64,000 bases of DNA from a virus: IMG/VR virus record IMGVR_UViG_3300042463_000422, positions 5,966-69,965 of that record; one strand, written 5' to 3'. Below, one piece after another: positions 34,201 to 62,418 of this stretch; the stretch's first letter is position 1, and the number at the start of each line of letters is the position of its first letter. The position numbers and the translations under genes are program-made. The notes beneath the pieces were generated by a model that was not told where the DNA came from, did no database searches, and was given only the letters and a program-made list of their open reading frames with translations.

Positions 34201-36216
34201 AACGAGCTCAACGGAATCGCGAGTTCAGAGTCGTTGAACTTCAGGGCGTACGGTGGATTCAAATGGCAGTACTGGGATGGATCTGCGACGTGGATGCAGT
34301 TGACCTCTGCAGGCCTGTCGATCACGGGAACACTGAACGCCACTGGAGCCATCACACAAGGCGGCAATCAAGTCCTGCACGCAGGCAACTACACCGGGTA
34401 CTTCAATAACTTCGTTCAGGGCGCGGGTTCGAGAGGTCGCTCAAGCGGCCGCACAAACGGTAGCGCAAACAACCTGACCGATCCATCTGGGTTCTACTTC
34501 GGAAACACTGTGACAGGAATGCCGTCCACGGACTGGTGGAACTGGCTGAACTGCATCGGCAACGACTGGTCCTCCCCGGACGGCTATGGCTACCAGTTGG
34601 CCTACTCGTTCTGGAGTGACGACATCAGGATGCGTCGGCTGACTTCTGGAACTTGGAATAGCTGGGTGTCGTTGATTCACAGCGGCAACTACACCAACTA
34701 TCCGCCTGCACGCTGGGCCACCGGCCGAACAATCGCCCTGACCGGAGATGTCACCGGAACCAGCGGTTTGTTCGACGGCACGGCCAATCTCTCGTTTGCT
34801 GCGACGATCGCAAACTCATCGGTAACCTACGCAAAGATCCAGAACGTCGCGGTGTCGAGCGTTCTTGGGAACAGCAGCGCATCAGTGGCTCAGGCTCCGC
34901 AGGCGCTCTCGATGGCCACACTGGCTGGCATGCTTAGCGGGCAGACGATGAACATCGTTGGAAGCTCAACCAGCGTGTCGGCAGCGGCGGATCAGGCGAT
35001 CGTCAATCAGCACAACGGAAGCGGCTCAGCATGGTACGGACGCATTCTCTCCAAGAACTCGACCAACGATAGGTCGGCGTTCCTTGGGACATACGGAAGC
35101 GTTGCGGGCGTCTTCGCTCACAACAACGCCTTAACCGCATGGGCTGACCTTTACATCAACACGGTGGATGGAAGCACTGGCGGCACCGTCCGAATGCCGT
35201 CATCCGTTCTGATCAACGGCAATCAGGCGCTCCACGCTGGAACAACAAGTGCCCCGAGTTTGAGTATTGGTGGCAATGCCGCGACAGCAACCAATCTCAG
35301 CACCAACAGAACCAACTGGTCCACGAATGGTGTGATCTCAGCTGTGGTCGGTCAGTTGGCTTGGAAGCACTACAACAACAACCACACGATCTTCGACGCT
35401 TCCAACTCTACGTCCCCAGCCGGAGGCGCGATCAGCAACACCAACGCGCAGGTCGCTTGGTCTTCAACCTACCCGACCCTGATGGGTTGGAATGGAGTCA
35501 ACACGTATGGCGTTCGAGTGGACTCGGCTAGGGTTGCTGATTCCTGCTCCGGTTCTGCGGCGCAGCTGAACGGTCAGGCCGCAAGCTACTACGAGAACCG
35601 CGACATCACTGCGGTCGGATTCGCGTCAGGAACACTGACTCTCACTCGCGCTGCGGGGAATCTCTCCGTCAGCCTCGACGGACGATACCTGACTGGAAAC
35701 CAGACGATCTCACTGACGGGGGCTGTAACAGGATCTGGCACCACGTCCATCGCGACTACGCTCGCGAACTCGACTGTCACCTACGCGAAGATTCAGAACG
35801 TGGGCGCGTCAAGCGTGCTGGGTAACAGTAGCGCGTCTGTCTCGCAAGCTCCGCAGGAGATCACGTTCGCCAACCTGAACAACCTCCTGTCTGGTGCAGC
35901 CAAGGCGTGGGTCACGTTCAACGAGAACCCGACCACCGGAGCGATCACGATCAACGCCAGCTTCAACGTCTCCAGTATAACGCGCATCAACTACGGGCAG
36001 TATCGGGTCAACTTCTCAACAGCGTTTGGCGATGCCAACTATGCTATTTCTGGAACTATTGGATTTGAGTCGAACGGAGGATACCTCTACGGCGGATTTC
36101 TAAACGTAGCCCGTAGTGCAACCCCGAAAACCACCACCTACTGTGAGGTCACCGCCAGTTACGGCGACGGCAACACATACAACGCACGCTATGTCCACGT
36201 CGTTATCGACCGATAA
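28264..36216 (+). CDS. giant modular tail fibre (2650 aa)
   Basis: G/T/N/S-rich; repeated DLLDGQHGSY, LHAGN...LPxxGGTLTG, VTYAKIQNV; C-terminal AKAWVTFN...FNVSSI domain. Confidence 0.88.
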   Translation: MKFESQLQIVTAAGVPPFTVNQTALVINLNADLLDGQHGSYYAAASSLGNYLPLTGGTLTGTLTGTVGIFTTLRATELTSLLGSNGPITITPDGTGHVHINSTDIRIGTNNTNATLATRGTGDLILRTHEGSANEGFIRIYDGANGNIEITPNGTGTVVVGRLSGSTASFSGALSITGLGTFANSAGNSYNENLRLPRGGSSYVSVALACDTSGSGSIAGQFNLIVYPTTVNQGAFAIRANGTDALTMTTGGAVNIPTLSGTTATFSGVVSGASFSGAGTGLTGTAASLNIGGNAATATSAALLGTNTGTNPSSLQYWQLTGNSTLNPNTSYWYALRMGHGDADTYYSATIAVDFFNDDIQFRRKTNGTNQSWRSLLHAGNFSSYALPLTGGTITGQLSINGSTASDILRLYITGSTVWKLGVTDASGSLFNITADFGNFTINKSNGNVATPGAFVSTVATGTAPLSVTSTTVVSNLNSDLLDGQHGSYFEGRDTTAIGFSGGSLTLTRTAGNLSVSLDGRYLPLTGGVLTGALTGTTAAFGGDVSLNAKVSFGNRAASYSLFHGGAQDLAWKKIADITFGTSLYSGATFKVEVIDANTNFGANADCKPMTFFVSCRRSGGVLNDLDSALVFGPVADYVRAVKTATGVYELQIRQIADWMVHTFIVEVISQGAGTVTYVTGTPPNGSTTGTIYLPTTGGYTQRFTNLAVTGATTFGGVAAFSAASGTYINTGGGNDAFGYNATAGLGHYIKGTGNTYIYGGGAFFDGSTTRTLLHAGNFNSYALPLTGGAMTGSSTISGDNHMTFGPNSTWSNSIRIGGNGYTATGTQMASVATTNGNLHLDSAKLTARGIYLNWYGGDAGTYFGNGSSGQVGRVDGSGNASFIGTVTSNYGTFSAPGLIVGDAQYGLYASAGSLFYKSASTGNHVWRNIANSANTMTLDNSGNLTITGTLTEGGYLAFPERVYTINLNAQSAANFYPIVINGSPGNDPWHHRFSLEMPSLGGASAYNMDHIHGEARGQGWSDQTGFYRIFHNCYENNERSVLGLWRGTQDWYGIVLYVRGGQTYYVRTTSRSVAGFTAATTQGNATFAIKNAAGADVSGTSTAIGELFNLINTPQGFHSSYNNYIGGTQVVTNTGTWGISISGTAATATTANGLNAANNYQVNSIGVGIAASGTAGSIGLNQAGTRSWSITPSGGNLNFASGDGSGAANFSVALQQGGQQVLHAGNYTSYAAGLGTYNVLTNVNQFRSNIGNGFYLGTANNPPLQAFSSDGGAAFMSFHRSGFYAVNMGLDPDNVLRIGGWSAAANRWQLDMSGNETIAGSLTAVGGIFSGPITQGPYSRRQIDFTSPAANFGNFKQFLRLWAASGSGSNLFTLRVSVRSTWNWATAYGGIEAVYSLYIPGDGSISSIRDFRITHVSGPATDTMRLGDAVIENGFVSIPVWCANTNPICATVEQWNGTAILGTTTAAVSEALPAFIAPSFRGGLTSNGPTTITDSNSGVLLSAANDARFYIRSGTAGAWLDIRSETNGYAAVNLYGGGATTGRWSAGMTGGNSNYRITSGAQGAGTVLLEINGSTNVSNFPNALQQGGNPVLSEAVVTFTPTAVGWYRIAIAGGISSGTIRITGVYDNRSAAMEFDYTVNGWNQNCSINVRNVNNYVGSLITQIRASNDVSTANGYLDIYIATATTPAPLTIYNFGPSRAGLVASPVVGAVVGTNVVRIATVINAMGFVTTGVLNGDTLGIAGNGTVGGTLSVTGAITQGGNQVLHAGNVSTYALPISGGTLTGAVSFLGTVYNNVGGARFFAGSGGFNYLYTNTSGMVWRNQADSATVATLTDAGAFNAAGAITQAGNQVVHAGNVSTYTIPYLSAVAEASLDTATGTGLRVINKTGYSSTLLTLNVAGSTGPFQLDANYTGVLRWRNQTDSTTWTAWKTLIHDANVSSYALPISGGTLTGNLALNTGVIFNRGSAPSITNIQCSIFNELNGIASSESLNFRAYGGFKWQYWDGSATWMQLTSAGLSITGTLNATGAITQGGNQVLHAGNYTGYFNNFVQGAGSRGRSSGRTNGSANNLTDPSGFYFGNTVTGMPSTDWWNWLNCIGNDWSSPDGYGYQLAYSFWSDDIRMRRLTSGTWNSWVSLIHSGNYTNYPPARWATGRTIALTGDVTGTSGLFDGTANLSFAATIANSSVTYAKIQNVAVSSVLGNSSASVAQAPQALSMATLAGMLSGQTMNIVGSSTSVSAAADQAIVNQHNGSGSAWYGRILSKNSTNDRSAFLGTYGSVAGVFAHNNALTAWADLYINTVDGSTGGTVRMPSSVLINGNQALHAGTTSAPSLSIGGNAATATNLSTNRTNWSTNGVISAVVGQLAWKHYNNNHTIFDASNSTSPAGGAISNTNAQVAWSSTYPTLMGWNGVNTYGVRVDSARVADSCSGSAAQLNGQAASYYENRDITAVGFASGTLTLTRAAGNLSVSLDGRYLTGNQTISLTGAVTGSGTTSIATTLANSTVTYAKIQNVGASSVLGNSSASVSQAPQEITFANLNNLLSGAAKAWVTFNENPTTGAITINASFNVSSITRINYGQYRVNFSTAFGDANYAISGTIGFESNGGYLYGGFLNVARSATPKTTTYCEVTASYGDGNTYNARYVHVVIDR

Positions 36217-42853: not shown

Positions 42854-45800
42854 ATGCCCAAGATCATTGCAGTTGAAGGACAGGGAAACCTTCAGTTTGG
42901 CGACGATTGGTCCGACGAGCAGATCGATCAGTACATCGAAGACAAGTACTTCGGTGGCCAGTCGTCTGCACAGTCGCAAGCGATACCAGCTGCAGAGAAG
43001 CAGGGTGTGTGGGACTCGTTCACCAGCGGTTTCGGCCGCGGATTCGAGGCTGGCGGCATTCCGTTCTACAGCGGTGGTAAGGAGGCGGTGAAGTCGGTCG
43101 GTGTGCTGAGTGCGGCGCTCGCTGCTCGGGAAGGCACAGCATCTGACGAGCAGATGCAGAGGCTGCGTGAGTACAAGGCCGAGGAGGACAAGGCTGCTGC
43201 CGAGGCTGAAGGACGTGGATCGCTCGAGCGGATTGCATACGGTGTCGGCCGAGTTCTCGGTGAGGCCCCTGGCTTCGCTGGTGAACTGGCTCTGACCGGT
43301 GGTATTGCCACCGCTGGTGAGAAGGCCGCAGTCAAGGCTGCTGCAACTGCCGTCAAGGCGCTTGGCAAGGAGACCGCCTACACAGCAACCCGCAAAGCTG
43401 CAGACTGGGCTGCCGACAAGGTCAGTGGTCGGATCGTTCGCGGTGCTGCAGGCGCTGCTGCTCAGACCATCCCGTCTGGTGCGGCTCGCATTGTGTCTGG
43501 AACTGCTGAGCGGATGACTCCCGGATTCGAGCTCGAGGAGGCTCCCGGTGGAACCTACTTCACCGAGACCAAGCAGGCTGACCCGTTCGTTACTGCAGCC
43601 TACAAGGCGCTCGGAGATCAGTTCATTGAGGTGCTGAGTGAGCGGTCTGGTGGGTTCCTCACCGACATGCTCGGTACCGGTGCCCGCAAGGCTGGTCTCG
43701 GCAGCACAATCGACTGGGCCTCTGGCCTCAAAAAGGCAGTGGCAGGTCGAGTGGCTCAGAAGTACCCCGGGATGTTTGAGGGCAATAACTTCATCGATGC
43801 CATCGGCAAAACCACCAAGTGGGACGGCGTCTTCGGTGAGATGCTTGAGGAGCGTGCCGGTGAAGTTGGACGAGCCGCTCTTGGTGTGCAGGATTACCAA
43901 GCTCCGTCGATGGAGCAGCTGGCCACCGAGGCTCTTGGCTTCGGTTTGATCGATGCTGGTTTCAATGGCGCTCGATTGGCTGCGGCCCTGAGCAAGAAGA
44001 ACCTGTCCAAGGATCAACGCGCACGGACACAGCAGGCTCTCGATGCGGTCACTGCTGCTGAGATAATCACTCCGCAAACCGATCTTGTTGAGAATCAAGA
44101 GCCCATTTCTGGCGATGTTGCAGGTAGCACTGTAGCAATAACTCCTTCCGGTCGAATCATCAGAACCAACAGCGCCAAGCGCCGCGCTGAGCTAGAGGCA
44201 GGGCTTTTTCTCCAGCAAGATAGCGGGCAGGTTATTGACGATCAGGAGGTGGCCGATGAGCAGCGTGTTGGACAGTACCCTCCCGAGGGTTTTGGAACTG
44301 GCGTCATTCCTTCTGCGGAAGAGCAGCAGCGTCGAGCCGCTGTTCGAGCTCGTGTCGCAAGTAGGAACCGAGAAGCAGCAAACGCCGCACGCTTGCAGGC
44401 CATGGCCGCAGAAGAGCAGGCGCAGCGTGAGGCTGATGCCGCTGCCGCTGTGCCTCAGAGCAGAGAGTCCGCTGCTGACCAGTTAAACGCTGTCACGTCG
44501 CTGCTGGCTGATCAGGAGGCGCTCGTCAACCAGCCTCAGTCCCGGTTCGGCCCAGGTGCTCGCGGCGAGGTTCCCCAGACCATCCGCGACGCCGGTACGG
44601 ACGTGATGGCAAAGCTCCGAGCACTCCAACAGCGTGACCGCGAATTAAACGCCCAGATCGAAGCCGAGATTGCTGCACGCGCTGAGGCTAAGCGTCTTGC
44701 TGCCGAGAAGGCTGCACAAGAGCAAGCCGCTCGTGAGCAAGCTGCGGCCCAAGCCCGTGCTGCCGCCGAGAAGGCTGCTCAAGAGAAGGCTGCCGCTGAG
44801 GCTGCTGCCGCTAACACCCCGACTTCCCCGCCGACTGATATTTCGCTACCGGTGGGAACCGGGGCTGCTCCTGTGGGTGGTGTCCCAGTTGCAGCCCCGG
44901 TCGTTGCCTCCAATGGTACACAAATCCAAGCGCCTCCAGCGGCGGCTGTGGCCACGGTCCAGCCCGCCAAAACCGAAACGCCTAGTGGGCCAGCAGGTTC
45001 GCAAACAACCCAAGCCCAAAACCAGCTAACGCCTCCTGCATCTAGGGTTGCAGAAGTAAACGCGGAGGTGATCAGCGCAAAGCCGGATCACTATTACCGC
45101 TCCATTCAGACCCCAGAGGATCTTGATGGAACGCGCCACATGGATCTTGGGCGTATCTGGCCAGACACGTTCGTGATCGAAATGAGCCCTGAGCAGAAGG
45201 CTACAAATACAGGGGCTAACGACACGTTCCGTGGAAAGGTAAACCCCAACAACGTCACTCGGATTATCTACGATAATCGCTCCTACAGTGAATACCCTGC
45301 AGACTACGTTCAGGCTCTTCGCAGTCGATTCCCTAATGCAGAGTTCGTTGACGCCGTTCTAAATGACAAGGAAGACGGTTACGTTGTTCTCCGCAAAACC
45401 CCATCGATCAATGCCAATCAAGTCCAAGGACCAGTAGCCGCGCCCAAGTACAGTGATGGCACCGAGGTTAAGGCTGGCGACACCATTCGCTGGCGCACCG
45501 CTGCCGGTAAGAACGAGGTGCTTGGCACCATCGACTCCATCAAGGACGGGGTGCCGCAGGTTCGCGTCACGCAGCTGTCCAAGAAGGCTCCGAACACCCA
45601 GAAGATCGGCAACATCGAGCTCAGTGGTGTGTACCCGGTGATCAACTCCAACCTGCTCGAGAAGCGTGAGCCGGTGAAGGAGGAGGAGAAGAAGAAGATC
45701 GGCCGCCCGTCGAAGATCACCCAGACCGACGACGAGAATGTGGCAGCGATCTTGGAGGAGGGTGTGAACCATCCCATGTGGCCCAGGTTCTCTGAGCTCA

Positions 45801-48800
45801 TGAGGGGCGCTCTCAATGAGAACGAGGCTGACGAGGAGGCGTTGGATGCTCTTCGTGAGCAGGTTGGCACACGGGCGTCCGTGGCCATGGAGGCCGCGTT
45901 CAACCAGCAGACTGCATTCGACTTCATCGATGGCCAGCAAAGTGTAGTCAACGTCGAGATAGACGATGTATTAACAAACTACGATCGCGGCCTGAAGAAG
46001 TGGGTGCTCAAGAACATCGACAGTAAATCGCCTGTTGGGTTCTCACCCAAGAAGAACTTGGTCATCGCGGTTCGCAACTCCCGCAAGAAGTCGCTCGTCG
46101 AGAAGAAAACAACCGCGATGAGCTCGTCCGTCAACGAAGACGGCGAGGAGAGCTCACCGATCGAGCAGTTTGCTCAGCCTGTTAATAAAGAGAGTGCTGC
46201 TTCGCTGGCGTCCATCTTCAGGAATGTCGAGGCGCTTGCTGATGCCGTGGTCTCTGCAATCCAGAAGGCCGAGGCTGCTGTGCGTGGGCGTCAGCTGACC
46301 CCTGATGAGTTCACCAAGGCTGTCGTCAGTGGATTCAAATCACTGATTCCAAACGCCCCTGCAAACGTAGCCGCAACTCTTGAGAGTATCGGTCTCACTG
46401 CATCTGGAAACCTTCAAGACATCTACGACGAGAAGGGTATCGATGGCGTTGATAATGCCATCGCTGAAGGTGAAGCCCTCCTAGCCAACGCTGCCGCTCA
46501 GGACACTGGCAACCAGTCTCTCCAGCAGGGCGAGATAACCCTGGCCGACGCAATCAACACCGTGCTTGCTGGCAACACTGCTAGTAGCTGGATGCGCGGC
46601 ATCGCTGAGAAGCTACTCAAGGCCAAGCTCCGTGCCCGTGTGGTTGTGCTGTCCGACGCTGAGTTCGATCGCATCGCCCCGCGCCCCGGACAGGCCGCGT
46701 TCTACGACTCCAACCCTCAGTCCGACACGATCTACATCCGCCAGTCTGCTGCGTCGCACGACTACTTGGTCATGCACGAGGCGGTCCACGCGGCCACGGT
46801 GTACGCGCTGCGGACCAACGTGAGCTTCCGTAACGAGGTTCGCCGGTTGCGCGACGCTGCCGTCAACGCTCTTGGAGCGAACAGCTTCTACGGCCTGCAG
46901 GAGCACGGCTCCAACTTCAACAACCTGGCCGAGTTCGTCGGCGAGTCGATGTCCAGCCAGGAGTTCCGCGATGCGCTGAACGGTGTGGTCGACAAGGATG
47001 GTCAGTCGCTGTGGACCAAGTTCCTCAACCTGATCGGCCGCCTGTTCGGGTTCAAGGGTGAGCAGAAGACCCTGCTCGATCAGATCGTCAACCTGAGCAC
47101 CGAGCAGTTCGCGCCTAACATCGCCATCAGCGAGGGTGATCAGGGTGTTGGTGAGCTCATGTCTGCACCGCAGATTGAGAGCGCCGAGCAGCTGAACGAT
47201 CTAACATCTGTACCCGGACTCAACGCGGCGAACATCGCTGCGATCGAGAACCTGGCGGCGACGCAGGCCCAGATGGTTCCGGGTTCAATCGTTTCCCAGA
47301 TTGCAACGCTTCCTACCACGGTGCGTCGTAGCTTGAATTGGCTTGTTGAGCAGGCTGCTGCATCTCCATCACCTAAAGCCCTGTCCTCGATGCCAACCGT
47401 TACCGAGGAGGATGTGCAGGCCAAGCATGAGGCGGCGCACGCTGTCGACAAGCTGGCTCGAGATGTTGAGAACGAACGCAGCAAGGTGCTCGAAAGCCTT
47501 GAAGAGCAACGGAATCAGTACGCCGCTTTGATCAACGGCCTGAAGGCTAACCTTGCATCGGCCAACGCTGAAGTGGCTGCAACCACTGGTGTCGTTGACA
47601 ACCTTGTCGAAGACTACAAGGACTACGTTGAAGACGTGAAGTCGGTCAGCGGTGTGTTGAGCATGGCTCAAAAAACAGCCATCGAGAAAGAGGCTGAGAT
47701 TGTGCGCCGCACGCACAAGGAGTCCGACCAGATGCGCAAGGCGATCTCGGCGATTGCTGAAGGTGTCACTGACGCTGAGCTCAACAACGCTCAGACCAAC
47801 GACGACATCGTCAACATCATCGCCACTCGCAAGATGTTGGACGGAAAGGTTCTACCCGAGACGATCAACACGCTCTTCACTGTTGGCTCATCAGGCAAGA
47901 CCCCGCTTCAGTCCATGCGCCGGTTGATCCCCGCGTTGAAGATGATCAAGAAGATCAACTCCAACATCGCCGGGGTAAGGGCTTCAGTCGATGCGTTCGA
48001 GAAGGCTGTGTCTGGAATGACCGGCAACAAGCAGCGCAAGGTGAACCCTCGCGCATTCGCTCGCCTCTATCGCCGAGTCCTCCAGAAACAGTCTAAAGCC
48101 ATTGAGGAGGCGCGGCTGCTTGATAACACCATCAACCGGATGGAGCGCAAGATTCTCCGGTTGGTTCAGGAGCTCGACGTTTACGACAACTTGGTCGCGT
48201 CGCCTGAGTTCTCATCTCAGTACGAGGAGGCGATCCGAAACCTGAACATTCTATCCAGCAACGCTGGAGATTATGGTGGCGCAGAGGGTGCCAAGAGCGA
48301 CCGCAAGGTTACCTACAAAATTGGATCTCAACTGTACACCATTGAGTACAGCGCAGACCCAGTAACCAACGCGAACAACAACGCTGTTGTGATGAGCGCG
48401 CTTACTGCGATTGAGGCAGAGCTTAAGAAGCCGCTGAGCCCGATCGATCGCTACAAGCTGAAGTGGATGCGCACCAAGCTGACGTTGTTCTCAAATCCGA
48501 TGGGGGACGCCGCTCTTGCGATCAACAGTTTCGACATCATCAACCGGCTGCGTGTTGCAATCCCGATCCTCACGCCGCTGATCGATCGCGCTTACGTCTT
48601 ATCTTTGATGCCGGGCACTGTCGGCAAGGAGCTCCGAATCCTGCTCAAGGTTTCCATGTCGGTTGCGTCTGGTATTGAGGCGGCCCGCATGAATCCGCGG
48701 TACGGTGAGTACGCGATCAACCTTGCCGTCGACAACGCTATCAAGAGCCATCCCGGTCTCGACGCTCGCACTTGGGACAAGGAGGTTCTGAACGAGTTCC

Positions 48801-51800
48801 TCGGCAGCAATCAGGAGCGCACCGGTCGCAACCTCAAGGTTGGCGACACCACCGCATTCGGCCACGTCATCACCAAGGAGGATGTGAAAGCGGCTGAGCT
48901 TCAGGCCCGGTTCGCTGACGCGATCTATAAGGCGGCTCGCGGTTCTGAGAGCGGCGGCATCGCCATGTACTATCCGACTCTGGTTCAGGAGTCGTTCATT
49001 CAGAATGGCGAGAAGCGCACCCGATACCGTTACGCTTATGCGGGCGGCGCGTTCACGACCCCGATGATTCTGGATCGAAGCGAGCTTCCCGGAAGCGTGC
49101 TCGACATGGCGAAGCAGTGGTACAATTACGGTACTAGCCCATCAACAGCCTACTCCAACCGACTCGCGCTTCTGCAGGGTCGCAAGTGGTTGGTCAACTT
49201 CGCACTCAAGCACGTCATGGAGACAAGCCCTCTCTACAAGAGGAAGTCTCCGTACGCGAAGATCTATCAATCCCTCGCCGATCGCTATGCGTCTACAGGC
49301 AAGCTGCCCGGAACCCTAGATGATCTGGTCAATGACATCGACGCGATGACTCCGGCTCTCGGAGACGAGGTTGCGCGCAAGGCTGAGATAACCCAGCGAC
49401 TGGTCGAAGAGATCAATCAGTTCGTTGAATCGTACCTGACTCAGGTTCAGGGTTCTGATCGCGATGAAGAGACTGCTGCTCTGAAGACCGATGCGCTGTC
49501 GGCCAACTCTTTTAACTCGATCATCAGCGGGTCAAATAACTTCACCAAGCCTCGTGGTGAAATGGTTGCTCCGTCCAACTTCTACAACTTCACACTGTCG
49601 AGCGATAGCGCCAAGGGTGTGATCGCGCACTCGGCCATGATGCCGATTCGCATGCGCCAGTTGACGCTGATGGGAGATGCCAAGAAGGCGTTCGAGGTTG
49701 AGCTCGCAAAGATCAACGATGAGATCAAGAACCGAAAGGGGTCAGCAGGATATCTTAATCGCGAATGGACTGAGCCGAAGCGGAACGTGCTCTCTGGTAA
49801 AGCGTATCTGAATCAAGGCCAGTTGATTGATCTCGTTACGATGATCAACAACAGCCTCGATGTTCTTAAGCAGACGCTTGAGAAGCCTGCTGTTGGACGC
49901 CTTCAGACCACCGTTATCGAGGATATGCTGCAAGTTCGCCGAGTGATGCTGGTTGCTCAGCTGACATCGGCGATTATGAACTTCACTCAGGCCGTGACCG
50001 CGGGGCAGTTCACTCCGAGCATCTATCTTCAGGGCTACAAGCCGAAGAGCCTGGTCAAACAGAGCCTGCTGCAGATTGTCAGAGGCGCTTGGGATACCGC
50101 TGCCGCGCTGTCTTCCGAGAACAAGGCGGTGTCTGGATGGCTCAAGGCCAACAAGTCCAAGTCCATGTTCCTGATGCGCAAGTTCGCTGAGCGCACCGAG
50201 GAGTTCCAGAAGATGCAGGCTCGTTCCAATTTCGAGGGATTCGCTGCTCCCAGATTGGGTGTGTTTGAACGTGCTAGGATCATTCGACAACTCGGAGGGT
50301 ATGGATCTCAAGTTGAGGGTTTTGCTGACTCCAAGGGCTCCACGTCGCAGGCGCTTGAGAGCGTCTTCTCGAAGTGGTTTCTTCCGCACGTTGTGCTGGC
50401 AGTTCAGAACATCCCGGCATCGGTTGATCGAGTGGCAAACATGATCAACCTCATGTCCATTCAGGACTCGCTGAATCTTGTGATGCGTTCCGGCACATCA
50501 ATCATGGAGAAGCGAGCGGCGTCTGGCGCTGCCGGATGGGACAACTGGTCTGACCCGAAGAACCTGATCAGCGAGGCTGAGGCCGAGGCCGCTGGTTGGC
50601 AGCGTGAGACTCTGGTCAACATGCGTCAGGCGTTCTCTGGGCTTGGTGGCTTGGAGCGCGTGCTGCACGACTACTGGTTGCGGGTGCAGGCTGCCAAGGT
50701 TGCAGGCACTAGCATCGATGACGTCCCACCGATTGCTGATGAGGGATTCAACCGCGACATATCACGCGAGCTTCTCGGCATGACCAATGCCGCGATGGAG
50801 GGCATGCGTCCTGAGGCTATTCAGGGCCGCACCGTGTTGGGTCGCATCTACAACTTCCTGTTCACGTTCTCCAGCTGGGTGAACCGATACTTCAGCACGC
50901 TTGGAAACCTGACTGCTGTTGACCCGAAGCGTGGCTACATCAATTTCGCTGCTTACTCAGCGGTCTCGATGGCGCTTCTTCTGACTGTGCTTGCCATCTC
51001 TGGGGCATGGAACAACGAGATCCGTGGGTTCTTCTACGAATTCGTGAAGGGTCGGCCGTACGCAGTGACCCGCGTTGGTGATGTGCTCCGAGATACCACC
51101 CCCGGAAGCATTGCGAAGCTGGCAGCTGCGTCGATTGGCTTGATGGTCCCCTACGCTGGCGAGTCGATAGCCAATCTGGTGGGCGGTCAGAACTACCGGA
51201 ACTCTCCGACCGATATCGCCAGCTTCTCGCAGAGTGTGCAGCTGGCCAAGACGTTCTCATCCGCCATCGAGAGCGGCATGAAGACTGGTGACTGGACTGG
51301 AACACTGGTCAACACGTTGCGTCAGACGGTGCCAGGAACCGATGCTGTGCTTAACCGATTGCCGGGTGTGCGTGCTGCAGATGCATCGGCTGATGCAGGA
51401 CGTGCCGCCCGTGTCGCTGCTGGCCCGCTGGAGCTCTCCGACAAGGGTGGGCAGGGTGGAACACCCACCAAGTTCAGCAACCTCGTCAGAAGGGCAGAGG
51501 CTGCCGCCGCTGGTGGCAACCTTGAGGAAGCCAGAAGCCTGCTTGAGCAAGCCGCTGAGGAGAAGAAGAAGACTGGAGGCACCGATCCGTACGGTGCTGT
51601 GAAGTCTGCGATCGCCGGCCGATCTGTTGATCGGAAGACGTTCGGCCGAAAGCTGACGGACGACGAGCGTGAGGGGCTGCTCTCTCGCATGAGCGATGGT
51701 CAGCGTGCTGCCTATCAGAAGGCGGAAGACGCCAACAATGCACTTGCCGGCCTAGTTCCTGAATCGGGAAGCCGAGGCGAGTACGAGCGGGTTGGCGGAA

Positions 51801-52015
51801 AGCCGAAGACTGCGATCGATCGAATGAACACGAAGCTCAGGAAGATCCGCCGCTCCGCTACACCCAAGGCGTTGAGGGCGATCAACAAGAAGATCAAGTC
51901 CCTCAAGCCGAAGAAGCTGAAGATCTCGAAGCCGAAGAACGTGTCCGGCTCAAGGCTGCTGCGACCAAAAGCTCGGGGGGCGGGGGCTTCTGTGCTGCGC
52001 CCCGCCTCGATGTGA
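42854..52015 (+). CDS. giant ejection / polyvalent-type protein (3053 aa) with zincin HExxH motif
   Basis: Ala-rich helical; AAFY...IYI...MHEAVHAAT...EFVGE; last gene of the virion operon. Confidence 0.8.
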   Translation: MPKIIAVEGQGNLQFGDDWSDEQIDQYIEDKYFGGQSSAQSQAIPAAEKQGVWDSFTSGFGRGFEAGGIPFYSGGKEAVKSVGVLSAALAAREGTASDEQMQRLREYKAEEDKAAAEAEGRGSLERIAYGVGRVLGEAPGFAGELALTGGIATAGEKAAVKAAATAVKALGKETAYTATRKAADWAADKVSGRIVRGAAGAAAQTIPSGAARIVSGTAERMTPGFELEEAPGGTYFTETKQADPFVTAAYKALGDQFIEVLSERSGGFLTDMLGTGARKAGLGSTIDWASGLKKAVAGRVAQKYPGMFEGNNFIDAIGKTTKWDGVFGEMLEERAGEVGRAALGVQDYQAPSMEQLATEALGFGLIDAGFNGARLAAALSKKNLSKDQRARTQQALDAVTAAEIITPQTDLVENQEPISGDVAGSTVAITPSGRIIRTNSAKRRAELEAGLFLQQDSGQVIDDQEVADEQRVGQYPPEGFGTGVIPSAEEQQRRAAVRARVASRNREAANAARLQAMAAEEQAQREADAAAAVPQSRESAADQLNAVTSLLADQEALVNQPQSRFGPGARGEVPQTIRDAGTDVMAKLRALQQRDRELNAQIEAEIAARAEAKRLAAEKAAQEQAAREQAAAQARAAAEKAAQEKAAAEAAAANTPTSPPTDISLPVGTGAAPVGGVPVAAPVVASNGTQIQAPPAAAVATVQPAKTETPSGPAGSQTTQAQNQLTPPASRVAEVNAEVISAKPDHYYRSIQTPEDLDGTRHMDLGRIWPDTFVIEMSPEQKATNTGANDTFRGKVNPNNVTRIIYDNRSYSEYPADYVQALRSRFPNAEFVDAVLNDKEDGYVVLRKTPSINANQVQGPVAAPKYSDGTEVKAGDTIRWRTAAGKNEVLGTIDSIKDGVPQVRVTQLSKKAPNTQKIGNIELSGVYPVINSNLLEKREPVKEEEKKKIGRPSKITQTDDENVAAILEEGVNHPMWPRFSELMRGALNENEADEEALDALREQVGTRASVAMEAAFNQQTAFDFIDGQQSVVNVEIDDVLTNYDRGLKKWVLKNIDSKSPVGFSPKKNLVIAVRNSRKKSLVEKKTTAMSSSVNEDGEESSPIEQFAQPVNKESAASLASIFRNVEALADAVVSAIQKAEAAVRGRQLTPDEFTKAVVSGFKSLIPNAPANVAATLESIGLTASGNLQDIYDEKGIDGVDNAIAEGEALLANAAAQDTGNQSLQQGEITLADAINTVLAGNTASSWMRGIAEKLLKAKLRARVVVLSDAEFDRIAPRPGQAAFYDSNPQSDTIYIRQSAASHDYLVMHEAVHAATVYALRTNVSFRNEVRRLRDAAVNALGANSFYGLQEHGSNFNNLAEFVGESMSSQEFRDALNGVVDKDGQSLWTKFLNLIGRLFGFKGEQKTLLDQIVNLSTEQFAPNIAISEGDQGVGELMSAPQIESAEQLNDLTSVPGLNAANIAAIENLAATQAQMVPGSIVSQIATLPTTVRRSLNWLVEQAAASPSPKALSSMPTVTEEDVQAKHEAAHAVDKLARDVENERSKVLESLEEQRNQYAALINGLKANLASANAEVAATTGVVDNLVEDYKDYVEDVKSVSGVLSMAQKTAIEKEAEIVRRTHKESDQMRKAISAIAEGVTDAELNNAQTNDDIVNIIATRKMLDGKVLPETINTLFTVGSSGKTPLQSMRRLIPALKMIKKINSNIAGVRASVDAFEKAVSGMTGNKQRKVNPRAFARLYRRVLQKQSKAIEEARLLDNTINRMERKILRLVQELDVYDNLVASPEFSSQYEEAIRNLNILSSNAGDYGGAEGAKSDRKVTYKIGSQLYTIEYSADPVTNANNNAVVMSALTAIEAELKKPLSPIDRYKLKWMRTKLTLFSNPMGDAALAINSFDIINRLRVAIPILTPLIDRAYVLSLMPGTVGKELRILLKVSMSVASGIEAARMNPRYGEYAINLAVDNAIKSHPGLDARTWDKEVLNEFLGSNQERTGRNLKVGDTTAFGHVITKEDVKAAELQARFADAIYKAARGSESGGIAMYYPTLVQESFIQNGEKRTRYRYAYAGGAFTTPMILDRSELPGSVLDMAKQWYNYGTSPSTAYSNRLALLQGRKWLVNFALKHVMETSPLYKRKSPYAKIYQSLADRYASTGKLPGTLDDLVNDIDAMTPALGDEVARKAEITQRLVEEINQFVESYLTQVQGSDRDEETAALKTDALSANSFNSIISGSNNFTKPRGEMVAPSNFYNFTLSSDSAKGVIAHSAMMPIRMRQLTLMGDAKKAFEVELAKINDEIKNRKGSAGYLNREWTEPKRNVLSGKAYLNQGQLIDLVTMINNSLDVLKQTLEKPAVGRLQTTVIEDMLQVRRVMLVAQLTSAIMNFTQAVTAGQFTPSIYLQGYKPKSLVKQSLLQIVRGAWDTAAALSSENKAVSGWLKANKSKSMFLMRKFAERTEEFQKMQARSNFEGFAAPRLGVFERARIIRQLGGYGSQVEGFADSKGSTSQALESVFSKWFLPHVVLAVQNIPASVDRVANMINLMSIQDSLNLVMRSGTSIMEKRAASGAAGWDNWSDPKNLISEAEAEAAGWQRETLVNMRQAFSGLGGLERVLHDYWLRVQAAKVAGTSIDDVPPIADEGFNRDISRELLGMTNAAMEGMRPEAIQGRTVLGRIYNFLFTFSSWVNRYFSTLGNLTAVDPKRGYINFAAYSAVSMALLLTVLAISGAWNNEIRGFFYEFVKGRPYAVTRVGDVLRDTTPGSIAKLAAASIGLMVPYAGESIANLVGGQNYRNSPTDIASFSQSVQLAKTFSSAIESGMKTGDWTGTLVNTLRQTVPGTDAVLNRLPGVRAADASADAGRAARVAAGPLELSDKGGQGGTPTKFSNLVRRAEAAAAGGNLEEARSLLEQAAEEKKKTGGTDPYGAVKSAIAGRSVDRKTFGRKLTDDEREGLLSRMSDGQRAAYQKAEDANNALAGLVPESGSRGEYERVGGKPKTAIDRMNTKLRKIRRSATPKALRAINKKIKSLKPKKLKISKPKNVSGSRLLRPKARGAGASVLRPASM

Positions 52016-52316
52016 ACGACAGGGGGCTGACGGTCTTCCGCGGGTCGAGAGACCTGCGGAGGAAGTATCGGTGACGCCAGAGGTTGCGGAGTGTGACGCC
52101 GCAGCCTCGCATGAATGCGTCAGCATCTCCGATGGAGACCTTGTCCCACGACTTCATCAGCGACAGGTCGCGCACCTTTTCATAGGAGAGTCCGCTACGC
52201 TTGGCGATGTCGTGATGTGTGAGGCGCTTGGCCCCTCGACCTTTACCCTCCCGCGCCAAGAGCCGGATGATCTGGGGAGGGAATGCACTGAGCATTTGGG
52301 AGATCGTGTCTTTCAT
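51903..52316 (-). CDS. HTH-like basic protein
   Basis: LTHHDIAKRSGLSYEKVRDLS; convergent overlap with the giant gene. Confidence 0.65.
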   Translation of the reverse strand: MKDTISQMLSAFPPQIIRLLAREGKGRGAKRLTHHDIAKRSGLSYEKVRDLSLMKSWDKVSIGDADAFMRGCGVTLRNLWRHRYFLRRSLDPRKTVSPLSFTSRRGAAQKPPPPELLVAAALSRTRSSASRSSASSA

Positions 52317-52333
52317 CTGCAGCTGACTGTAAA

Positions 52334-52487
52334 TGGATGACCCATCGGATTGAACGGCTGGATTTCAACAAGGTTCCAGTGAGTAGGTTTGCATCCACCC
52401 CACCGTCTCTCAGCCAAAGTACCCGAACCTCTGGACCCTAGGCCCAGCGTGTCTTATGCCCGTCGGCTTTCTCTACACCATGGATCA
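52334..52487 (-). ncRNA. 154-nt tRNA-like RNA with expanded D and T arms and a CCA end
   Basis: Acceptor UGAUCCA/UGGGUCA+U+CCA; D stem GUGU/ACAC; anticodon stem CUGGG/UCCAG; T stem UCGG/CCGA with GUUCAAU. Confidence 0.7.
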
Positions 52488-52491
52488 AAAT

Positions 52492-52566
52492 TGGTAGCGG
52501 GGGGTGGACTCGAACCACCGACCGTCTGCTTATGAGGCAGCCTAGCTACCACTGCTACACCCCGCC
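52492..52566 (-). tRNA. tRNA-Met(CAT), initiator-like body
   Basis: GGCGGGG UG UAGC AGUGGUA GCUA G GCUGC CUCAUAA GCAGA CGGUC GGUGG UUCGAGU CCACC CCCCGCU A CCA. Confidence 0.93.
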
Positions 52567-52575
52567 ACGAAAGCA

Positions 52576-52663
52576 ACTGGGGCGCTCCGTTTTATGCGGT
52601 TACGGAGCAGGGATACCATGTGACCAGCGAACCACCACCGCCGCAATCCCTGCTTGCCCCAGT
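52576..52663 (-). ncRNA. three-way-junction RNA with potential loop-loop pairing
   Basis: ACUGGGGC/GCCCCAGU, AGGGAU/AUCCCU, GCUCCGU/ACGGAGC; loops UGCGG and CCGCA. Confidence 0.55.
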
Positions 52664-52670
52664 AGAAAAT

Positions 52671-52790
52671 GTGCCCGTTGTTGTCTCAGTGTGAGGAGGC
52701 TAGAAGATCCTTCCCCCTCGGGCGCACTGCGGATGCCGGTCTTTCCCGACTGTCACTGCTTGTCATCGCAGACTTGAGTCAACCAGTGCT
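52671..52790 (-). ncRNA. structured RNA, first element of the ncRNA cassette
   Basis: CUGCG/CGCAG, GUCGG-GAAAGA-CCGGC, GAGGGGG/CCUCCUC, GCCCG/CGGGC. Confidence 0.5.
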
Positions 52791-52795
52791 CACTA

Positions 52796-52824
52796 GGTGT
52801 AGTACACCATGTGGGCGGTGTCAA
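52796..52824 (-). promoter_or_regulatory. promoter/operator copy 7: TTGACA-N10-GGTGTACTACACC
   Basis: Directly upstream of the ncRNA/tRNA cassette. Confidence 0.8.
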
Positions 52825-52832
52825 CGAGTGCT

Positions 52833-53300
52833 TTAGAAAGGCACGTCGTCGTCCATACTGACAGGACCATCGTTGGAAACACCCGCAGCAGCCTGCCGCT
52901 GGCTGACAGGGGCCTGCTGTTGATTGAAGCGTTGGACATTGGAACCGCCACCAGTCGGAGGAGTGGACGGCCGAGACAGCAGCTGGAGGTTCTCACCAAA
53001 GATGCCGAGCTTGCTCCGCTTCTCGCCCGTCTTCTTATCCTCCCACTGGTCGAGCTTGAGGCGTCCGTCGATCAGGATGGGGTCACCCTTCTTGACGTAC
53101 TTACTGACCACGTCGGAAACCTTCCCGATGAAGTCAACGTCGACGAACGTGGTTTCCTCCTTCTTCTCACCACTCTCAGTGGAGAACTTGCGGGAGACTG
53201 CCAGTCCGATCTTTGCGATAGAGGTGCCCTTGGGGGTGACCCTGACTTCGGGATCACGGGTGACGTTGCCCATGAGGACGACCTTGTTGTACGATGCCAT
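52833..53300 (-). CDS. ssb: single-stranded DNA-binding protein
   Basis: NKVVLMGNVTRDPE, GRLKLDQWEDK, DDDVPF tail. Confidence 0.97.
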   Translation of the reverse strand: MASYNKVVLMGNVTRDPEVRVTPKGTSIAKIGLAVSRKFSTESGEKKEETTFVDVDFIGKVSDVVSKYVKKGDPILIDGRLKLDQWEDKKTGEKRSKLGIFGENLQLLSRPSTPPTGGGSNVQRFNQQQAPVSQRQAAAGVSNDGPVSMDDDVPF

Positions 53301-53339: not shown

Positions 53340-54521
53340 CTAACTAAAGATGCTCACGTCCCTGATGTCAACGACCAGTCTGAACCCACAGGTGGGCTCG
53401 CCGCGTTCGTCGCATGGGATGGTGACTGCTCGCTTTCCTTCAGCGTTTACAAGGGTCTTCACGAACTGCACCGGCTCTCCGTCCGGCAGGTTGATCCGCC
53501 CCTTCTTCACGATGTAGATGCGCTCAGGTTTGAACGTGAACGCGCTGGATTGGGAGACGCGCTGGCCGTTGGTGACCACTGTGATCTCCTGCATGTTGCC
53601 TGCTTTGACGCGAGCCTCGGACACGCCTTGTCTTATGGCGTCGGTATCAACGTGAACGTACTGGGAGAAGATCCGCGGATCGAGGTGACCCGAGACCTTG
53701 GTTGCCAGAATGGTGCTCATGCCGCTGTTGGCCAGCATTGAGACGAATGAGTGGCGGAGGCTGTGGAACCGCTTGCTGCGATCGATGCCCGCCTTGTCTG
53801 CGATGTACCTGAATGCGTCACTGCCACTGCTGGCAATGACGTGTCGGTCCATGTTGACCCTGCTGCCTGCTTGATCCGACACGAAGTCGGTTGGGCTGGC
53901 AGTGGGGGATTCAGCACGCAGGGCCTGCAACGCCCTGCCAAGCTCGTCTGTTGGGTTGAATGGTATGATCGACTCGGTTCCTGTCTTCACACGCCTGATG
54001 CGGATGAAGCATTTGTCCATGTCGATGTCACCCCACCGCAGCATCATGCAGTCCGCGATGGACATGCCGGTGTTCCATCCAAGAAGTATGACCCAGTCCA
54101 TCCAGTGGCCGGCCGCTGTGTGTCGCAGCTTGATGTACTCTTCGTGAGTGATGGCGTTGACGCTCCGCTCGTCGCGGATGGTTGGAGTTCGCACGGCGTG
54201 GTGCGGACTGGTATTTACTCGACCAGTGGTCTCAAGCCACCTCAGGAACCGACGCACCGAGTTCCAGTACTCCTGAGCAGTGCGCGGCTTGTGGTTCTCG
54301 AAGAGCCGGGTGCAGTAGGTCTGCAGGTTCTCCGACGTGATGGTGTCGTGATGGCACGCCTTCATCCAAGATATCCACTTATTGATCCAAAGTTTCGAGA
54401 AGTGGATTGTAGCTGGGCGGCGACCCGGGAAGTCGCTGTTGTGATATGTCACAGCAAGATGCGCAAGCTGTGATGGGTTCATGTAGATCACATGTCCTTG
54501 GTACGTAGTTTCTGTGGTCAT
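53340..54521 (-). CDS. tyrosine recombinase/integrase family protein (first catalytic Arg replaced by Ser)
   Basis: SAM-like N-terminus, TGMSIAD, KT, FHSLRHSF, SGH, QYVH. Confidence 0.88.
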   Translation of the reverse strand: MTTETTYQGHVIYMNPSQLAHLAVTYHNSDFPGRRPATIHFSKLWINKWISWMKACHHDTITSENLQTYCTRLFENHKPRTAQEYWNSVRRFLRWLETTGRVNTSPHHAVRTPTIRDERSVNAITHEEYIKLRHTAAGHWMDWVILLGWNTGMSIADCMMLRWGDIDMDKCFIRIRRVKTGTESIIPFNPTDELGRALQALRAESPTASPTDFVSDQAGSRVNMDRHVIASSGSDAFRYIADKAGIDRSKRFHSLRHSFVSMLANSGMSTILATKVSGHLDPRIFSQYVHVDTDAIRQGVSEARVKAGNMQEITVVTNGQRVSQSSAFTFKPERIYIVKKGRINLPDGEPVQFVKTLVNAEGKRAVTIPCDERGEPTCGFRLVVDIRDVSIFS

Positions 54522-62363: not shown

Positions 62364-62418
62364 CGCTGGGCTTGTGACCAGCGTGCCGCATTACCGGGCC
62401 GAAGCCCGTCACTCTGCG
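62364..62418 (-). ncRNA. twister ribozyme, circularly permuted (P5-type)
   Basis: CGCA GAG UGA CGGGC UUCG GCCCG G U|AA UGC GGC A CGCUG GUCACAAGCC CAGCG; P1, P2, P4, T1 (UCAC/GUGA) and T2 (GGC/GCC) all pair. Confidence 0.88.

What the first reader, a model, noticed from the sequence alone, without database searches (positions are those of the whole stretch)
52334..52487. 154-nt CCA-ended tRNA-like RNA with structured insertions in the D loop and T arm
Seen: 4 nt after tRNA-Met there is a 7-bp acceptor stem (U1-A72, Gln-like UGAUCCAUGGUGUA start) with U73-CCA. The D stem encloses a 22-nt loop with an extra GCC-GACG-GGC hairpin. The anticodon loop is CCUAGGG (UAG in anticodon position but C33). 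A 4-bp T stem encloses about 65 extra nt closed by GGCUG/CAGCC before GUUCAAU. Inference: a tRNA mimic (decoy for anticodon nucleases or synthetases, Y-RNA-like scaffold) or a precursor with non-canonical intervening sequences. Standard tRNA finders would probably miss it.
Basis: partly seen in the sequence, partly recalled or inferred. Interest (0 to 1): 0.82.

Follow-up and report, generated by a model that had tools for sequence, protein, structure and literature searches.

The report
Expanded tRNA-shaped RNA in lake phage
A small group of freshwater phages carries, right behind a normal tRNA gene, a conserved 154-base RNA that keeps the stems and CCA tail of a tRNA but has lost the decoding loop and gained two large structured additions, so it is probably a tRNA look-alike of unknown job.

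Summary
On the minus strand, 4 nt after tRNA-Met (52492-52566), window 52334-52487 folds as described: a 7-bp acceptor stem plus UCCA, a 4-bp D stem with a hairpin in its loop, a 5-bp "anticodon" stem, a 4-nt variable region, and a 5-bp T stem whose loop is replaced by a 72-nt arm. ARAGORN and Rfam do not call it.

It is a real structured RNA. Ten distinct homologs, all from related uncultivated phage or metagenome contigs, keep 98.9% of pair cells. Five pairs show changes on both sides, in the acceptor stem, the D-loop hairpin and the distal hairpin.

The "anticodon" loop varies in length and sequence, so it does not decode. The additions are under structural selection, so they are not introns.

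It lies in a transcription unit: repeated phage promoter motif, structured leader RNA, tRNA-Met, this RNA, then an XRE-like regulator gene.

Best reading: a non-decoding tRNA mimic cut out by RNase P. It parallels T4 RNAC/RNAD in position, but no sequence match to them was found. Its function is unknown; a decoy or scaffold role is only inferred.

I class it as a new variant of a known kind. Interest is moderate to high.

The parts
52796..52824 (-). Promoter-like motif for the RNA cluster: TTGACA (52819-52824), a 17-nt spacer ending in the palindrome GGTGTAcTACACC (52796-52808).
   Evidence: The palindrome GGTGT-N3-ACACC occurs 9 times in the window against 2.0 expected; 0 of 100 shuffles reach 9. 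In 6 of the 9 sites a TTGAC(A/T) lies upstream, 5 of them at the same 17-nt spacing (read by eye). The motif is conserved in 7 of 7 aligned phages. The generic sigma-70 scan found nothing here.
52576..52663 (-). Structured leader RNA upstream of tRNA-Met: an 8-bp closing helix, a long arm and a short hairpin, forming a three-way junction.
   Evidence: RNAalifold on A6. Pair count: 28 pairs, 97.3% paired, 4 pairs (7 cells) changed on both sides, 0 of 500 shuffles reach the covariation score, slid controls give 0 such pairs. No Rfam match at E<=10.
52492..52566 (-). tRNA-Met (anticodon CAU) with an encoded CCA.
   Evidence: ARAGORN. Rfam RF00005 at 58.8 bits. Present in 6 of 6 related IMG/VR loci.
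52488..52491 (-). 4-nt spacer AUUU between the CCA of tRNA-Met and U1 of the element. The predicted RNase P cut lies between 52488 and 52487.
   Evidence: Sequence. The spacer is 3-4 nt in all 10 homologs. The cleavage site is inferred, not shown.
52334..52487 (-). The whole tRNA-shaped RNA, 154 nt.
   Evidence: CM R1 scores it 202 bits, with no second copy in the window.
52481..52487 (-). Acceptor stem, 5' strand (UGAUCCA). It pairs with 52338-52344.
   Evidence: 7 of 7 pairs are kept in 10 of 10 sequences. U1-A72 becomes C-G in 2 sequences and A7-U66 becomes G-C in 3. Two more pairs change on one side only.
52449..52478 (-). D arm: a 4-bp stem GUGU/ACAC and a 22-nt loop holding the GCC-GACG-GGC hairpin.
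   Evidence: The stem is invariant. In 2 sequences the hairpin pair C-G becomes A-U and G-C becomes G-U. The loop letters AGAGAA and GACG are invariant.
52431..52447 (-). "Anticodon" arm: a 5-bp stem CUGGG/UCCAG with a loop that varies in length and sequence.
   Evidence: The stem is kept in 10 of 10 sequences (G.U becomes A-U in 2). The loop has four forms of 7-8 nt.
52427..52430 (-). Variable region AGGU (AGGC in 2 sequences).
   Evidence: A44, G45 and G46 are invariant.
52350..52421 (-). 72-nt arm in place of the T loop. It consists of an internal loop (UACUU / GUUCAA), the helix GGCUG/CAGCC, a second internal loop (GAGAGAC / GGAAC...UGAAAUCC) and a 7+2-bp distal hairpin.
   Evidence: Distal hairpin: 2 pairs changed on both sides (one has four pair types), and 2 changed on one side only. 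GGCUG/CAGCC is paired in 98% of cells. The internal-loop letters are invariant or nearly so.
52422..52426 (-). T stem, 5' strand (UCGGG). It pairs with 52345-52349 (UCCGA).
   Evidence: 5 pairs, 96% of cells paired. G53.U61 becomes G-C in 2 sequences. U49-A65 is broken (G.A) in 2.
52334..52344 (-). Acceptor stem 3' strand UGGGUCA, then U73 and CCA.
   Evidence: UCCA is invariant in 10 of 10 sequences.
51903..52316 (-). ORF137, the last gene of the unit. Its ATG lies 17 nt after the CCA. It is a likely XRE-type helix-turn-helix regulator.
   Evidence: It has 17 homologs, none named, and follows the element in 6 of 6 IMG/VR relatives. It has no Pfam or PHROG hit. The AlphaFold model has pLDDT 72. 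Foldseek's best matches are XRE/C-protein HTH folds, but only at E >= 0.02.

Best explanation
This is the gene of a non-decoding RNA with tRNA architecture, carried by a narrow clade of freshwater phages.

Shown:
- It is a conserved structured RNA on the minus strand.
- Its junction layout is that of a class I tRNA: 7-bp acceptor, 2 nt, 4-bp D stem, 1 nt, 5-bp stem, 4-nt variable region, 5-bp T stem, 0 nt, then NCCA.
- The decoding loop is not conserved.
- The D loop and T loop are replaced by conserved structured modules.
- It sits 4 nt behind tRNA-Met, downstream of a repeated phage promoter motif.

Inferred:
- It is made as part of a leader / tRNA-Met / element / ORF137 transcript.
- Host RNase P recognises the 12-bp acceptor/T-stem stack plus UCCA and cuts before U1. 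This cut also frees tRNA-Met with a 4-nt trailer.
- The 3' end is cut in the A/U-rich UUUACAG and trimmed back to the encoded CCA. The product is a stable 154-nt RNA.

More speculative:
- The tRNA-like end lets it engage proteins that read the tRNA acceptor/CCA end.
- The two conserved expansion modules give it a specific partner.
- It would then act as a mimic (decoy or scaffold) rather than in translation.
For: Structure and covariation:
- 10 distinct sequences, 38 pairs, 98.9% of cells paired.
- 5 pairs (13 cells) changed on both sides.
- 0 of 500 shuffles reach the covariation score; slid controls give 0-2 such pairs. The 7-sequence set gives the same picture.

Strand: five helix positions are G.U in 7-8 of 10 sequences. 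They would be A.C mismatches on the other strand.

tRNA likeness:
- The layout is read directly from the sequence.
- U8, A14, G26/A26, A44, G45 and G46 are kept. Their roles in the tRNA core are recalled textbook knowledge.
- The element's own model, run with filters off on 6 kb of phage T4, ranks real tRNAs first, second and seventh: tRNA-Gly 13.5 bits at E 0.008, tRNA-Ser 8.7 bits, tRNA-Arg 5.1 bits.

Not decoding: the loop has four forms of 7-8 nt.

Position: a 3-4-nt spacer after the CCA of tRNA-Met in 10 of 10 sequences. T4 has the same layout: tRNA-Arg, 1 nt, rnaD, 6 nt, rnaC.

Transcription unit: the promoter motif is over-represented (9 sites against 2.0 expected) and correctly oriented about 230 nt upstream of tRNA-Met.

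RNA libraries: contigs 88-99% alike from 3 of 4 riverine metatranscriptome runs cover the element. In one run its contig has depth 24.1, against 10.5 for the upstream contig and 3.2 for the downstream one.

RNase P separating closely spaced tRNAs in E. coli: title and start of abstract of PMC2190699, seen in the listing.
Against: - A single-sequence fold is no better than shuffles (z = -0.97).
- The family is narrow: 84-97% identity and about 6 lineages. Only 5 pairs covary, and relatedness can inflate the shuffle control.
- Flanking non-structural sequence, such as UUUACAGUCAG after the CCA, is just as conserved.
- No tRNA finder or Rfam model matches the element.
- The model does not hit the phage's own tRNA-Met at E<=2, and the T4 tRNA hits are weak.
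- G18 G19 and a 7-nt T loop are absent, so the tRNA elbow that RNase P also reads is missing.
- There is no read-level evidence for discrete 5' and 3' ends. The RNA-library data are contigs, may include DNA, and give one depth per contig.
- No partner is known. The phage has no Ro/TROVE gene and no CCA-adding enzyme gene.
Confidence: 0.6

Rival explanations
1. It is a cis-acting part of the ORF137 messenger. A tRNA-like "punctuation" or 5' stability element would direct RNase P to cut the polycistronic RNA and then stay attached as a structured 5' cap on the regulator's mRNA. It would have no function of its own in trans.
For: The CCA lies only 17 nt before the ORF137 ATG, and the intervening letters are invariant. 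The element and ORF137 co-occur in 6 of 6 IMG/VR relatives. In one RNA run a single 1327-nt contig spans ORF137, the element, tRNA-Met and the leader.
Against: tRNA-Met itself already supplies an RNase P site 4 nt away. The invariant UCCA and the two elaborate conserved modules are more than a processing signal needs. In run X20 the contig with the element has 7.5 times the depth of the ORF137 contig (24.1 against 3.2; weak evidence).
Confidence: 0.2
2. It is a decaying tRNA gene, a pseudogene that picked up insertions and is conserved only because the phages are close relatives.
For: The clade is narrow, with 84-97% identity. No tRNA finder accepts it. The anticodon loop drifts. The neighbouring non-structural sequence is equally conserved.
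Against: Changes fall so as to keep the helices. Five pairs changed on both sides and 8 changed on one side only, against 3 pairs with unpaired cells (4 cells). This includes both "insertions". Slid and shuffled controls are far lower.
Confidence: 0.07
3. It is a precursor of a working tRNA. The D-loop and T-arm additions would be removed and the ends rejoined, for example by the phage's own RNA ligase.
For: The phage encodes an RNA ligase (PF09414 plus the PHA02142 OB domain, window 2200-3177 minus strand). ARAGORN with introns allowed and an 80% threshold proposes a tRNA-Ser(GGA) with a 73-nt intron.
Against: That ARAGORN model has a mismatched T arm and cuts through helices that covary. The loop in anticodon position is not conserved. 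Removing the additions leaves no G18 G19 and no 7-nt T loop. No bulge-helix-bulge motifs were seen by eye. The additions are under structural selection.
Confidence: 0.05
4. The unit exists as a head-to-tail form, either a circular RNA of about 155 nt or a tandem gene duplicate in some strains.
For: In 1 of 4 RNA runs (X20), a contig of depth 24.1 joins 52489 back to 52335 ("goes back 155", 35 letters on the shorter side). That is almost exactly the element plus 2 spacer letters and minus the last A. The phage has an RNA ligase. The depth is about 2.3 times that of the upstream contig, as a duplicate would give.
Against: The evidence is one contig in one run, and the tool could not tell whether other letters lie between the two sides of the joint. 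The other 3 runs show no such joint. Each of the 10 DNA contigs has a single copy. Template switching on an abundant small RNA could produce the same junction.
Confidence: 0.08

Closest known systems
Phage T4 small stable RNAs RNAC and RNAD (species 1 and 2)
   Same: They are phage-encoded and 119 and 139 nt long. They lie directly behind a tRNA gene on the same strand, with 1-nt and 6-nt spacers. RNAC ends in a tRNA-type T hairpin, CCGGG-UUCGAAU-CCCGG. Their roles are still unknown (passages read in PMC3014915, and PMC9697503).
   Different: The element's model does not hit rnaC or rnaD above noise. As annotated, neither T4 RNA ends in CCA. By RNAfold they do not form a cloverleaf. The element lacks a hairpin T loop. 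The phage lineages are unrelated.
Canonical tRNA (Rfam RF00005)
   Same: The helix lengths and linker lengths of the four-way junction are the same. So are the encoded NCCA end, the conserved U8, A14, G26, A44, G45 and G46, and the position in a tRNA transcription unit.
   Different: There is no 7-nt T loop, no G18 G19, and C33 in place of U33. The "anticodon" loop varies in length. It is 154 nt long and is rejected by ARAGORN and Rfam.
Bacterial Y RNA YrlA (the tRNA-like module that binds Ro/Rsr)
   Same: It is a non-coding RNA that mimics tRNA and is also reported in phages (title and abstract start of PMC4201824, seen in the listing).
   Different: There is no Rfam Y-RNA match at E<=10 and no TROVE/Ro gene in the phage. 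In YrlA the RNA ends form the Ro-binding stem, not an acceptor stem with CCA (recalled).
tmRNA tRNA-like domain
   Same: An acceptor stem plus CCA, with a large insertion inside a tRNA frame.
   Different: ARAGORN's tmRNA search is negative, even at a 60% threshold. Position 3:70 is A-U rather than G.U. There is no tag reading frame. The D and "anticodon" arms are present.
Candidate structured RNAs predicted from IMG/VR (PMC10690425)
   Same: A catalogue of 8495 covarying candidate RNAs from the same database, some described as tRNA-like (abstract and passages read).
   Different: Whether this element is among them could not be checked, because supplementary tables are closed. The five tRNA-like examples named in the text all overlap ARAGORN tRNA calls; this element does not.

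Membership tests
tRNA | 7-bp acceptor stem with a discriminator base and a CCA end | tested here: met
   UGAUCCA/UGGGUCA plus UCCA. All 7 pairs are kept in 10 of 10 sequences.
tRNA | 7-nt anticodon loop with U33 and a conserved anticodon | tested here: not met
   C33. The loop is 7 or 8 nt and has four different sequences among the 10 homologs.
tRNA | 7-nt T loop (T54 Psi55 C56) closed by G53-C61 | tested here: not met
   72 nt lie between G53 and U61. UUCAA is present, but as one side of an internal loop.
tRNA | D loop with G18 G19 | tested here: not met
   The D loop is AGAGAAA, the hairpin, then AUAAG. There is no free GG.
tRNA | Recognised by ARAGORN or the Rfam tRNA models | tested here: not met
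   Only a sub-threshold intron model at -ps80 turns up.
tmRNA | G3.U70, a tag-peptide reading frame, pseudoknots, and detection by ARAGORN | tested here: not met
   A3-U70. ARAGORN's tmRNA search is negative. Rfam is negative.
Y RNA / YrlA | Rfam model match and a neighbouring Ro (TROVE) gene | tested here: not met
   No Rfam match. PF05731 is absent from the 69,965-bp phage record, while the control genomes ring.
T4 RNAC/RNAD-type phage stable RNAs (a kind, not a homology family) | Encoded a few nt downstream of a phage tRNA on the same strand, 100-160 nt long, non-decoding | tested here: met
   A 4-nt spacer and 154 nt, against 1 and 6 nt and 119 and 139 nt in T4.
T4 RNAC/RNAD-type phage stable RNAs (a kind, not a homology family) | Accumulates as a discrete stable RNA processed from the tRNA precursor | not testable with these tools
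   Only contigs from RNA libraries were available. No read ends could be seen.
T4 RNAC/RNAD-type phage stable RNAs (a kind, not a homology family) | Sequence or structure homology to rnaC or rnaD | tested here: not met
   R1 with filters off gives at most 4.1 bits inside rnaC and 0.9-1.6 bits inside rnaD.
Known self-cleaving ribozymes or riboswitches in the T-arm insert | Rfam covariance-model match | tested here: not met
   No match at E<=10 over 52000-52900.

The most novel reading that the evidence does not exclude
This would be a new class of phage RNA built on a tRNA scaffold. RNase P would release it from a tRNA operon. Its acceptor/CCA end would act as bait, and its two conserved expansion modules would hold a specific grip on a host factor that acts on tRNA ends. 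That factor could be a defence toxin that modifies or cuts tRNA, or a processing enzyme. The RNA might also exist as a head-to-tail (circular) form made by the phage RNA ligase. Together with the structured leader RNA upstream, the locus would be a small cassette of anti-host RNAs placed under the same promoter as a repressor-like gene.
Probability: 0.15. Interest if true: 0.85.

Novelty: new variant of a known kind. Interest (0 to 1): 0.6.

Why it matters
Phage tRNA genes are now known to matter in the contest with host defences that attack tRNA. The non-decoding RNAs that ride in phage tRNA clusters, however, have had no function assigned since T4 RNAC and RNAD were found.

This element is a clean second example, with clearer tRNA architecture than the T4 RNAs. 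It has comparative support for each of its added modules and a defined genetic context of promoter motif, leader RNA, tRNA, mimic and regulator.

If it proves to be a processed, stable RNA, it offers a tractable case for three questions. What does a tRNA mimic do for a DNA phage? How far can the tRNA frame be expanded and still be handled by RNase P? Do standard annotation pipelines systematically miss such RNAs?

Tried and rejected
Searches that gave no further homologs:
- blastn of 52200-52700 against 50,697 phage records. 144 records matched, but all 20 listed rows cover only query positions 124-214, which is the tRNA-Met. 0 records cover at least 80% of the query.
- The exact 16-mer of the element in IMG/VR gave 43 stretches. 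Only the six known contigs are real by the model: 6 hits among 68 sources searched.
- A looser D-loop pattern gave 40 stretches; 0 of the 34 new loci are real.
- The two-block pattern in GTDB genomes gave 27 stretches, 0 real. No prophage copy or host was found.
- The next-nearest phages by SSB (L008-L013) searched with filters off: 0 of 6.
- ORF137 used as a synteny probe, alone and as a 16-sequence profile, returned the same six contigs.

Ideas rejected:
- Known ribozyme or riboswitch in the insert: no Rfam match.
- Hammerhead-like reading of CUGAGAG...GAAC, judged by eye: the core letters do not fit.
- Pseudoknot between GGUUC (variable region) and GAACC (T-arm loop), judged by eye: not kept in L135 or L006.
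- attP remnant of a host tRNA. The 3' end cannot be read as a regular tRNA 3' half, and there is no host match. That tRNA-Met itself is the attachment site remains possible and untested.
- ARAGORN's tRNA-Ser with an intron: see rivals.
- Second copy in the window: none.

RNA-run notes:
- Run X22 shows no cover over 52242-52509.
- All runs were contigs, so they say nothing about RNA ends.
- The share of words held by the RNA runs was small, 0.10-0.14.

The more distant ORF137 homologs (P0011-P0017, 56-71% identity) could therefore not be inspected for the RNA.
- Supplements of PMC10690425 could not be seen.

Literature: searches found no description of this RNA.

Full report
WHAT IS THERE

The window is most of a 69,965-bp virus record with direct terminal repeats. 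ARAGORN finds one tRNA in it, tRNA-Met(CAU), on the minus strand at 52492-52566. Rfam agrees and adds only a Twister-P5 ribozyme 10 kb away.

A 4-nt spacer AUUU is followed by a 7-bp acceptor stem UGAUCCA/UGGGUCA with U73-CCA. Next come U8 G9 and a 4-bp D stem whose 22-nt loop holds a GCC-GACG-GGC hairpin. After one linker base comes a 5-bp stem with loop CCUAGGG, then a 4-nt variable region AGGU. The 5-bp T stem (UCGGG/UCCGA) has its loop replaced by 72 nt closed by GGCUG/CAGCC.

RNAfold finds the same helices, but the energy is not unusual (z = -0.97; 32 of 200 shuffles fold as well). No Rfam family matches the element, even at E<=10.

IS IT MORE THAN CHANCE?

Public phage genomes match only the tRNA-Met part. 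Using the neighbouring SSB and ORF137 proteins as probes, I found six related IMG/VR contigs that carry the element at 84-97% identity, each directly behind a tRNA-Met.

A covariance model built from these found nothing else in 68 + 34 loci fetched from IMG/VR by two patterns. It found four copies in metagenome contigs, one of them identical to a known one. It found none in 27 pattern hits from 185,579 prokaryote species genomes. It also found none in the next-nearest phages. The family is therefore narrow, with ten distinct sequences.

On these ten, the tRNA-like structure of 38 pairs is paired in 98.9% of cells. Five pairs (13 cells) changed on both sides:
- U1-A72 to C-G in 2 sequences;
- A7-U66 to G-C in 3 sequences;
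- one pair of the D-loop hairpin;
- two pairs of the distal hairpin, one of which has four pair types.

Eight more pairs change on one side only, between G.U and G-C or A-U. Three pairs have unpaired cells, 4 cells in all. No shuffle of 500 reaches the covariation score, and sliding the partners by 1-3 columns gives 0-2 covarying pairs and 29-45% pairing (the 7-sequence version is).

Five positions are G.U in most sequences, which fixes the strand as minus.

The D stem and four of the five pairs in each of the "anticodon" stem and the GGCUG/CAGCC helix never vary, so they are neither supported nor contradicted.

ANATOMY

The helix and linker lengths are those of a class I tRNA. The core letters U8, A14, G26 (A in some), A44, G45 and G46 are kept. 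Their roles in tRNA folding are recalled textbook knowledge.

With filters off, the element's own model ranks real T4 tRNAs first, second and seventh in a 6-kb stretch. The scores are low, 13.5 bits at best, and the model does not hit the phage's own tRNA-Met.

Three things are not tRNA-like:
- The loop in anticodon position has C33 and four different forms of 7-8 nt.
- The D loop has no G18 G19.
- There is no hairpin T loop. The UUCAA letters form one side of an internal loop, opposite UACUU.

The best-conserved unpaired letters lie in the two additions: AGAGAA and the GACG loop in the D arm, and UACUU/GUUCAA and GAGAGAC/GGAAC...UGAAAUCC in the T arm. These are the likely functional surfaces.

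SURROUNDINGS

The element lies near the end of a minus-strand gene block:
- tyrosine integrase (53340-54521);
- SSB (52833-53300);
- the RNA cluster;
- ORF137 (51903-52316), which converges on a 3053-residue plus-strand gene.

Just after the SSB stop there is a TTGACA, 17 nt, and a palindrome GGTGTAcTACACC. This palindrome occurs 9 times in the window against 2.0 expected. In 6 of the 9 sites a TTGAC(A/T) lies upstream, 5 of them at the same 17-nt spacing. I read it as a phage promoter or operator. The simple sigma-70 scan did not call it.

Between it and tRNA-Met lies a second structured RNA (52576-52663) with its own covariation: 28 pairs, 97.3% paired, 4 pairs changed on both sides, and 0 of 500 shuffles reaching the covariation score.

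ORF137 has 17 unnamed relatives. Its model resembles XRE-type helix-turn-helix regulators, but weakly (pLDDT 72; Foldseek E >= 0.02).

The phage also encodes an RNA ligase. It has no Ro/TROVE gene and no CCA-adding enzyme gene.

EXPRESSION

DNA runs that hold the stretch are lake-water metagenomes. Six riverine metatranscriptome runs hold 10-14% of its sampled words. I laid four of them.

Contigs 88-99% alike cover the element in three of the four runs. In one run a single contig spans ORF137 through to SSB.

In run X20 the contig carrying the element has depth 24.1, against 10.5 upstream and 3.2 downstream. That contig also joins 52489 back to 52335, a 155-nt cycle that nearly equals the element.

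These are contigs from RNA libraries that may contain DNA. They show presence, not RNA ends. The junction could be a circular RNA, a tandem duplicate in that strain, or an artefact.

HOW IT MOST LIKELY WORKS

Shown: it is a conserved RNA of tRNA architecture that cannot decode, placed in a tRNA transcription unit.

Inferred: RNase P cuts before U1, using the 12-bp acceptor/T-stem stack and the UCCA. The same cut releases tRNA-Met with a short trailer, as in closely spaced bacterial tRNA operons (PMC2190699, title and abstract start only). The 3' end is trimmed back to the encoded CCA.

Speculative: the free RNA uses its tRNA-like end and its two conserved modules to bind a factor that normally handles tRNA.

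My estimates are about 0.9 that it is a real structured RNA, 0.6 that it is a separately processed tRNA mimic, and about 0.15-0.2 that it is a decoy.

The rivals are a cis element of the ORF137 mRNA (0.2), a decaying tRNA gene (0.07), a spliced precursor (0.05) and a head-to-tail form (0.08, which is not exclusive of the main reading).

COMPARISON WITH WHAT IS KNOWN

The closest in kind are T4 RNAC and RNAD. They have the same placement behind a tRNA and a similar size, and their roles are unknown. They show no sequence or model similarity to this element and no cloverleaf fold.

The element fails the defining tests for tRNA, tmRNA and YrlA (see the membership table).

A catalogue of IMG/VR candidate RNAs exists (PMC10690425). 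I could not check its tables.

Five literature searches found no description of this RNA.

VERDICT

I class it as a new variant of a known kind, with interest 0.6.

LIMITS

- The clade is narrow.
- There are no read-level RNA data.
- The host is unknown.
- Two tools and all paper supplements were closed.

Noticed in passing
window 52576-52663 (-): A second conserved structured RNA lies between the promoter motif and tRNA-Met. It is a three-way junction with 28 pairs, 97.3% paired, and 4 pairs changed on both sides. It has no Rfam match.
   Followed up: partly
window 305, 4691, 5134, 10829, 37028, 41757, 52796, 56277 (exact) and 13202 (1 mismatch): The palindrome GGTGT-N3-ACACC is over-represented (9 sites against 2.0 expected). 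In 6 of the 9 sites a TTGAC(A/T) lies upstream, 5 of them at a 17-nt spacing. It is a likely phage promoter or operator, possibly the target of the XRE-like ORF137.
   Followed up: partly
window 62366-62418 (-): A Twister-P5 self-cleaving ribozyme matches at 59.7 bits (gathering score 37.6) in the early-gene block of the phage.
   Followed up: no
window 52335-52489, RNA run X20: One metatranscriptome contig (depth 24.1) joins 52489 back to 52335. This is a 155-nt head-to-tail cycle that almost equals the element. It could be a circular RNA, a tandem duplicate or an artefact.
   Followed up: partly
window 2200-3177 (-): The phage encodes an RNA ligase (PF09414 plus the PHA02142 OB-fold domain). 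No link to the tRNA-like RNA was shown.
   Followed up: no
window 28264-36216 (+) and 42854-52015 (+): There are two giant open reading frames of 2650 and 3053 residues in the structural block. The second overlaps the 3' end of the convergent ORF137 by 113 nt.
   Followed up: no
window 52492-52566 (-) and 53340-54521 (-): A full tRNA-Met gene lies about 770 nt from a tyrosine integrase gene. The tRNA gene might double as the phage attachment site. No host copy was found to test this.
   Followed up: no
L135 (metagenome contig) 9628-9988 (-): This contig combines an L006-type tRNA-like element with a window-type leader RNA. This suggests recombination between lineages inside the RNA cluster.
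   Followed up: no
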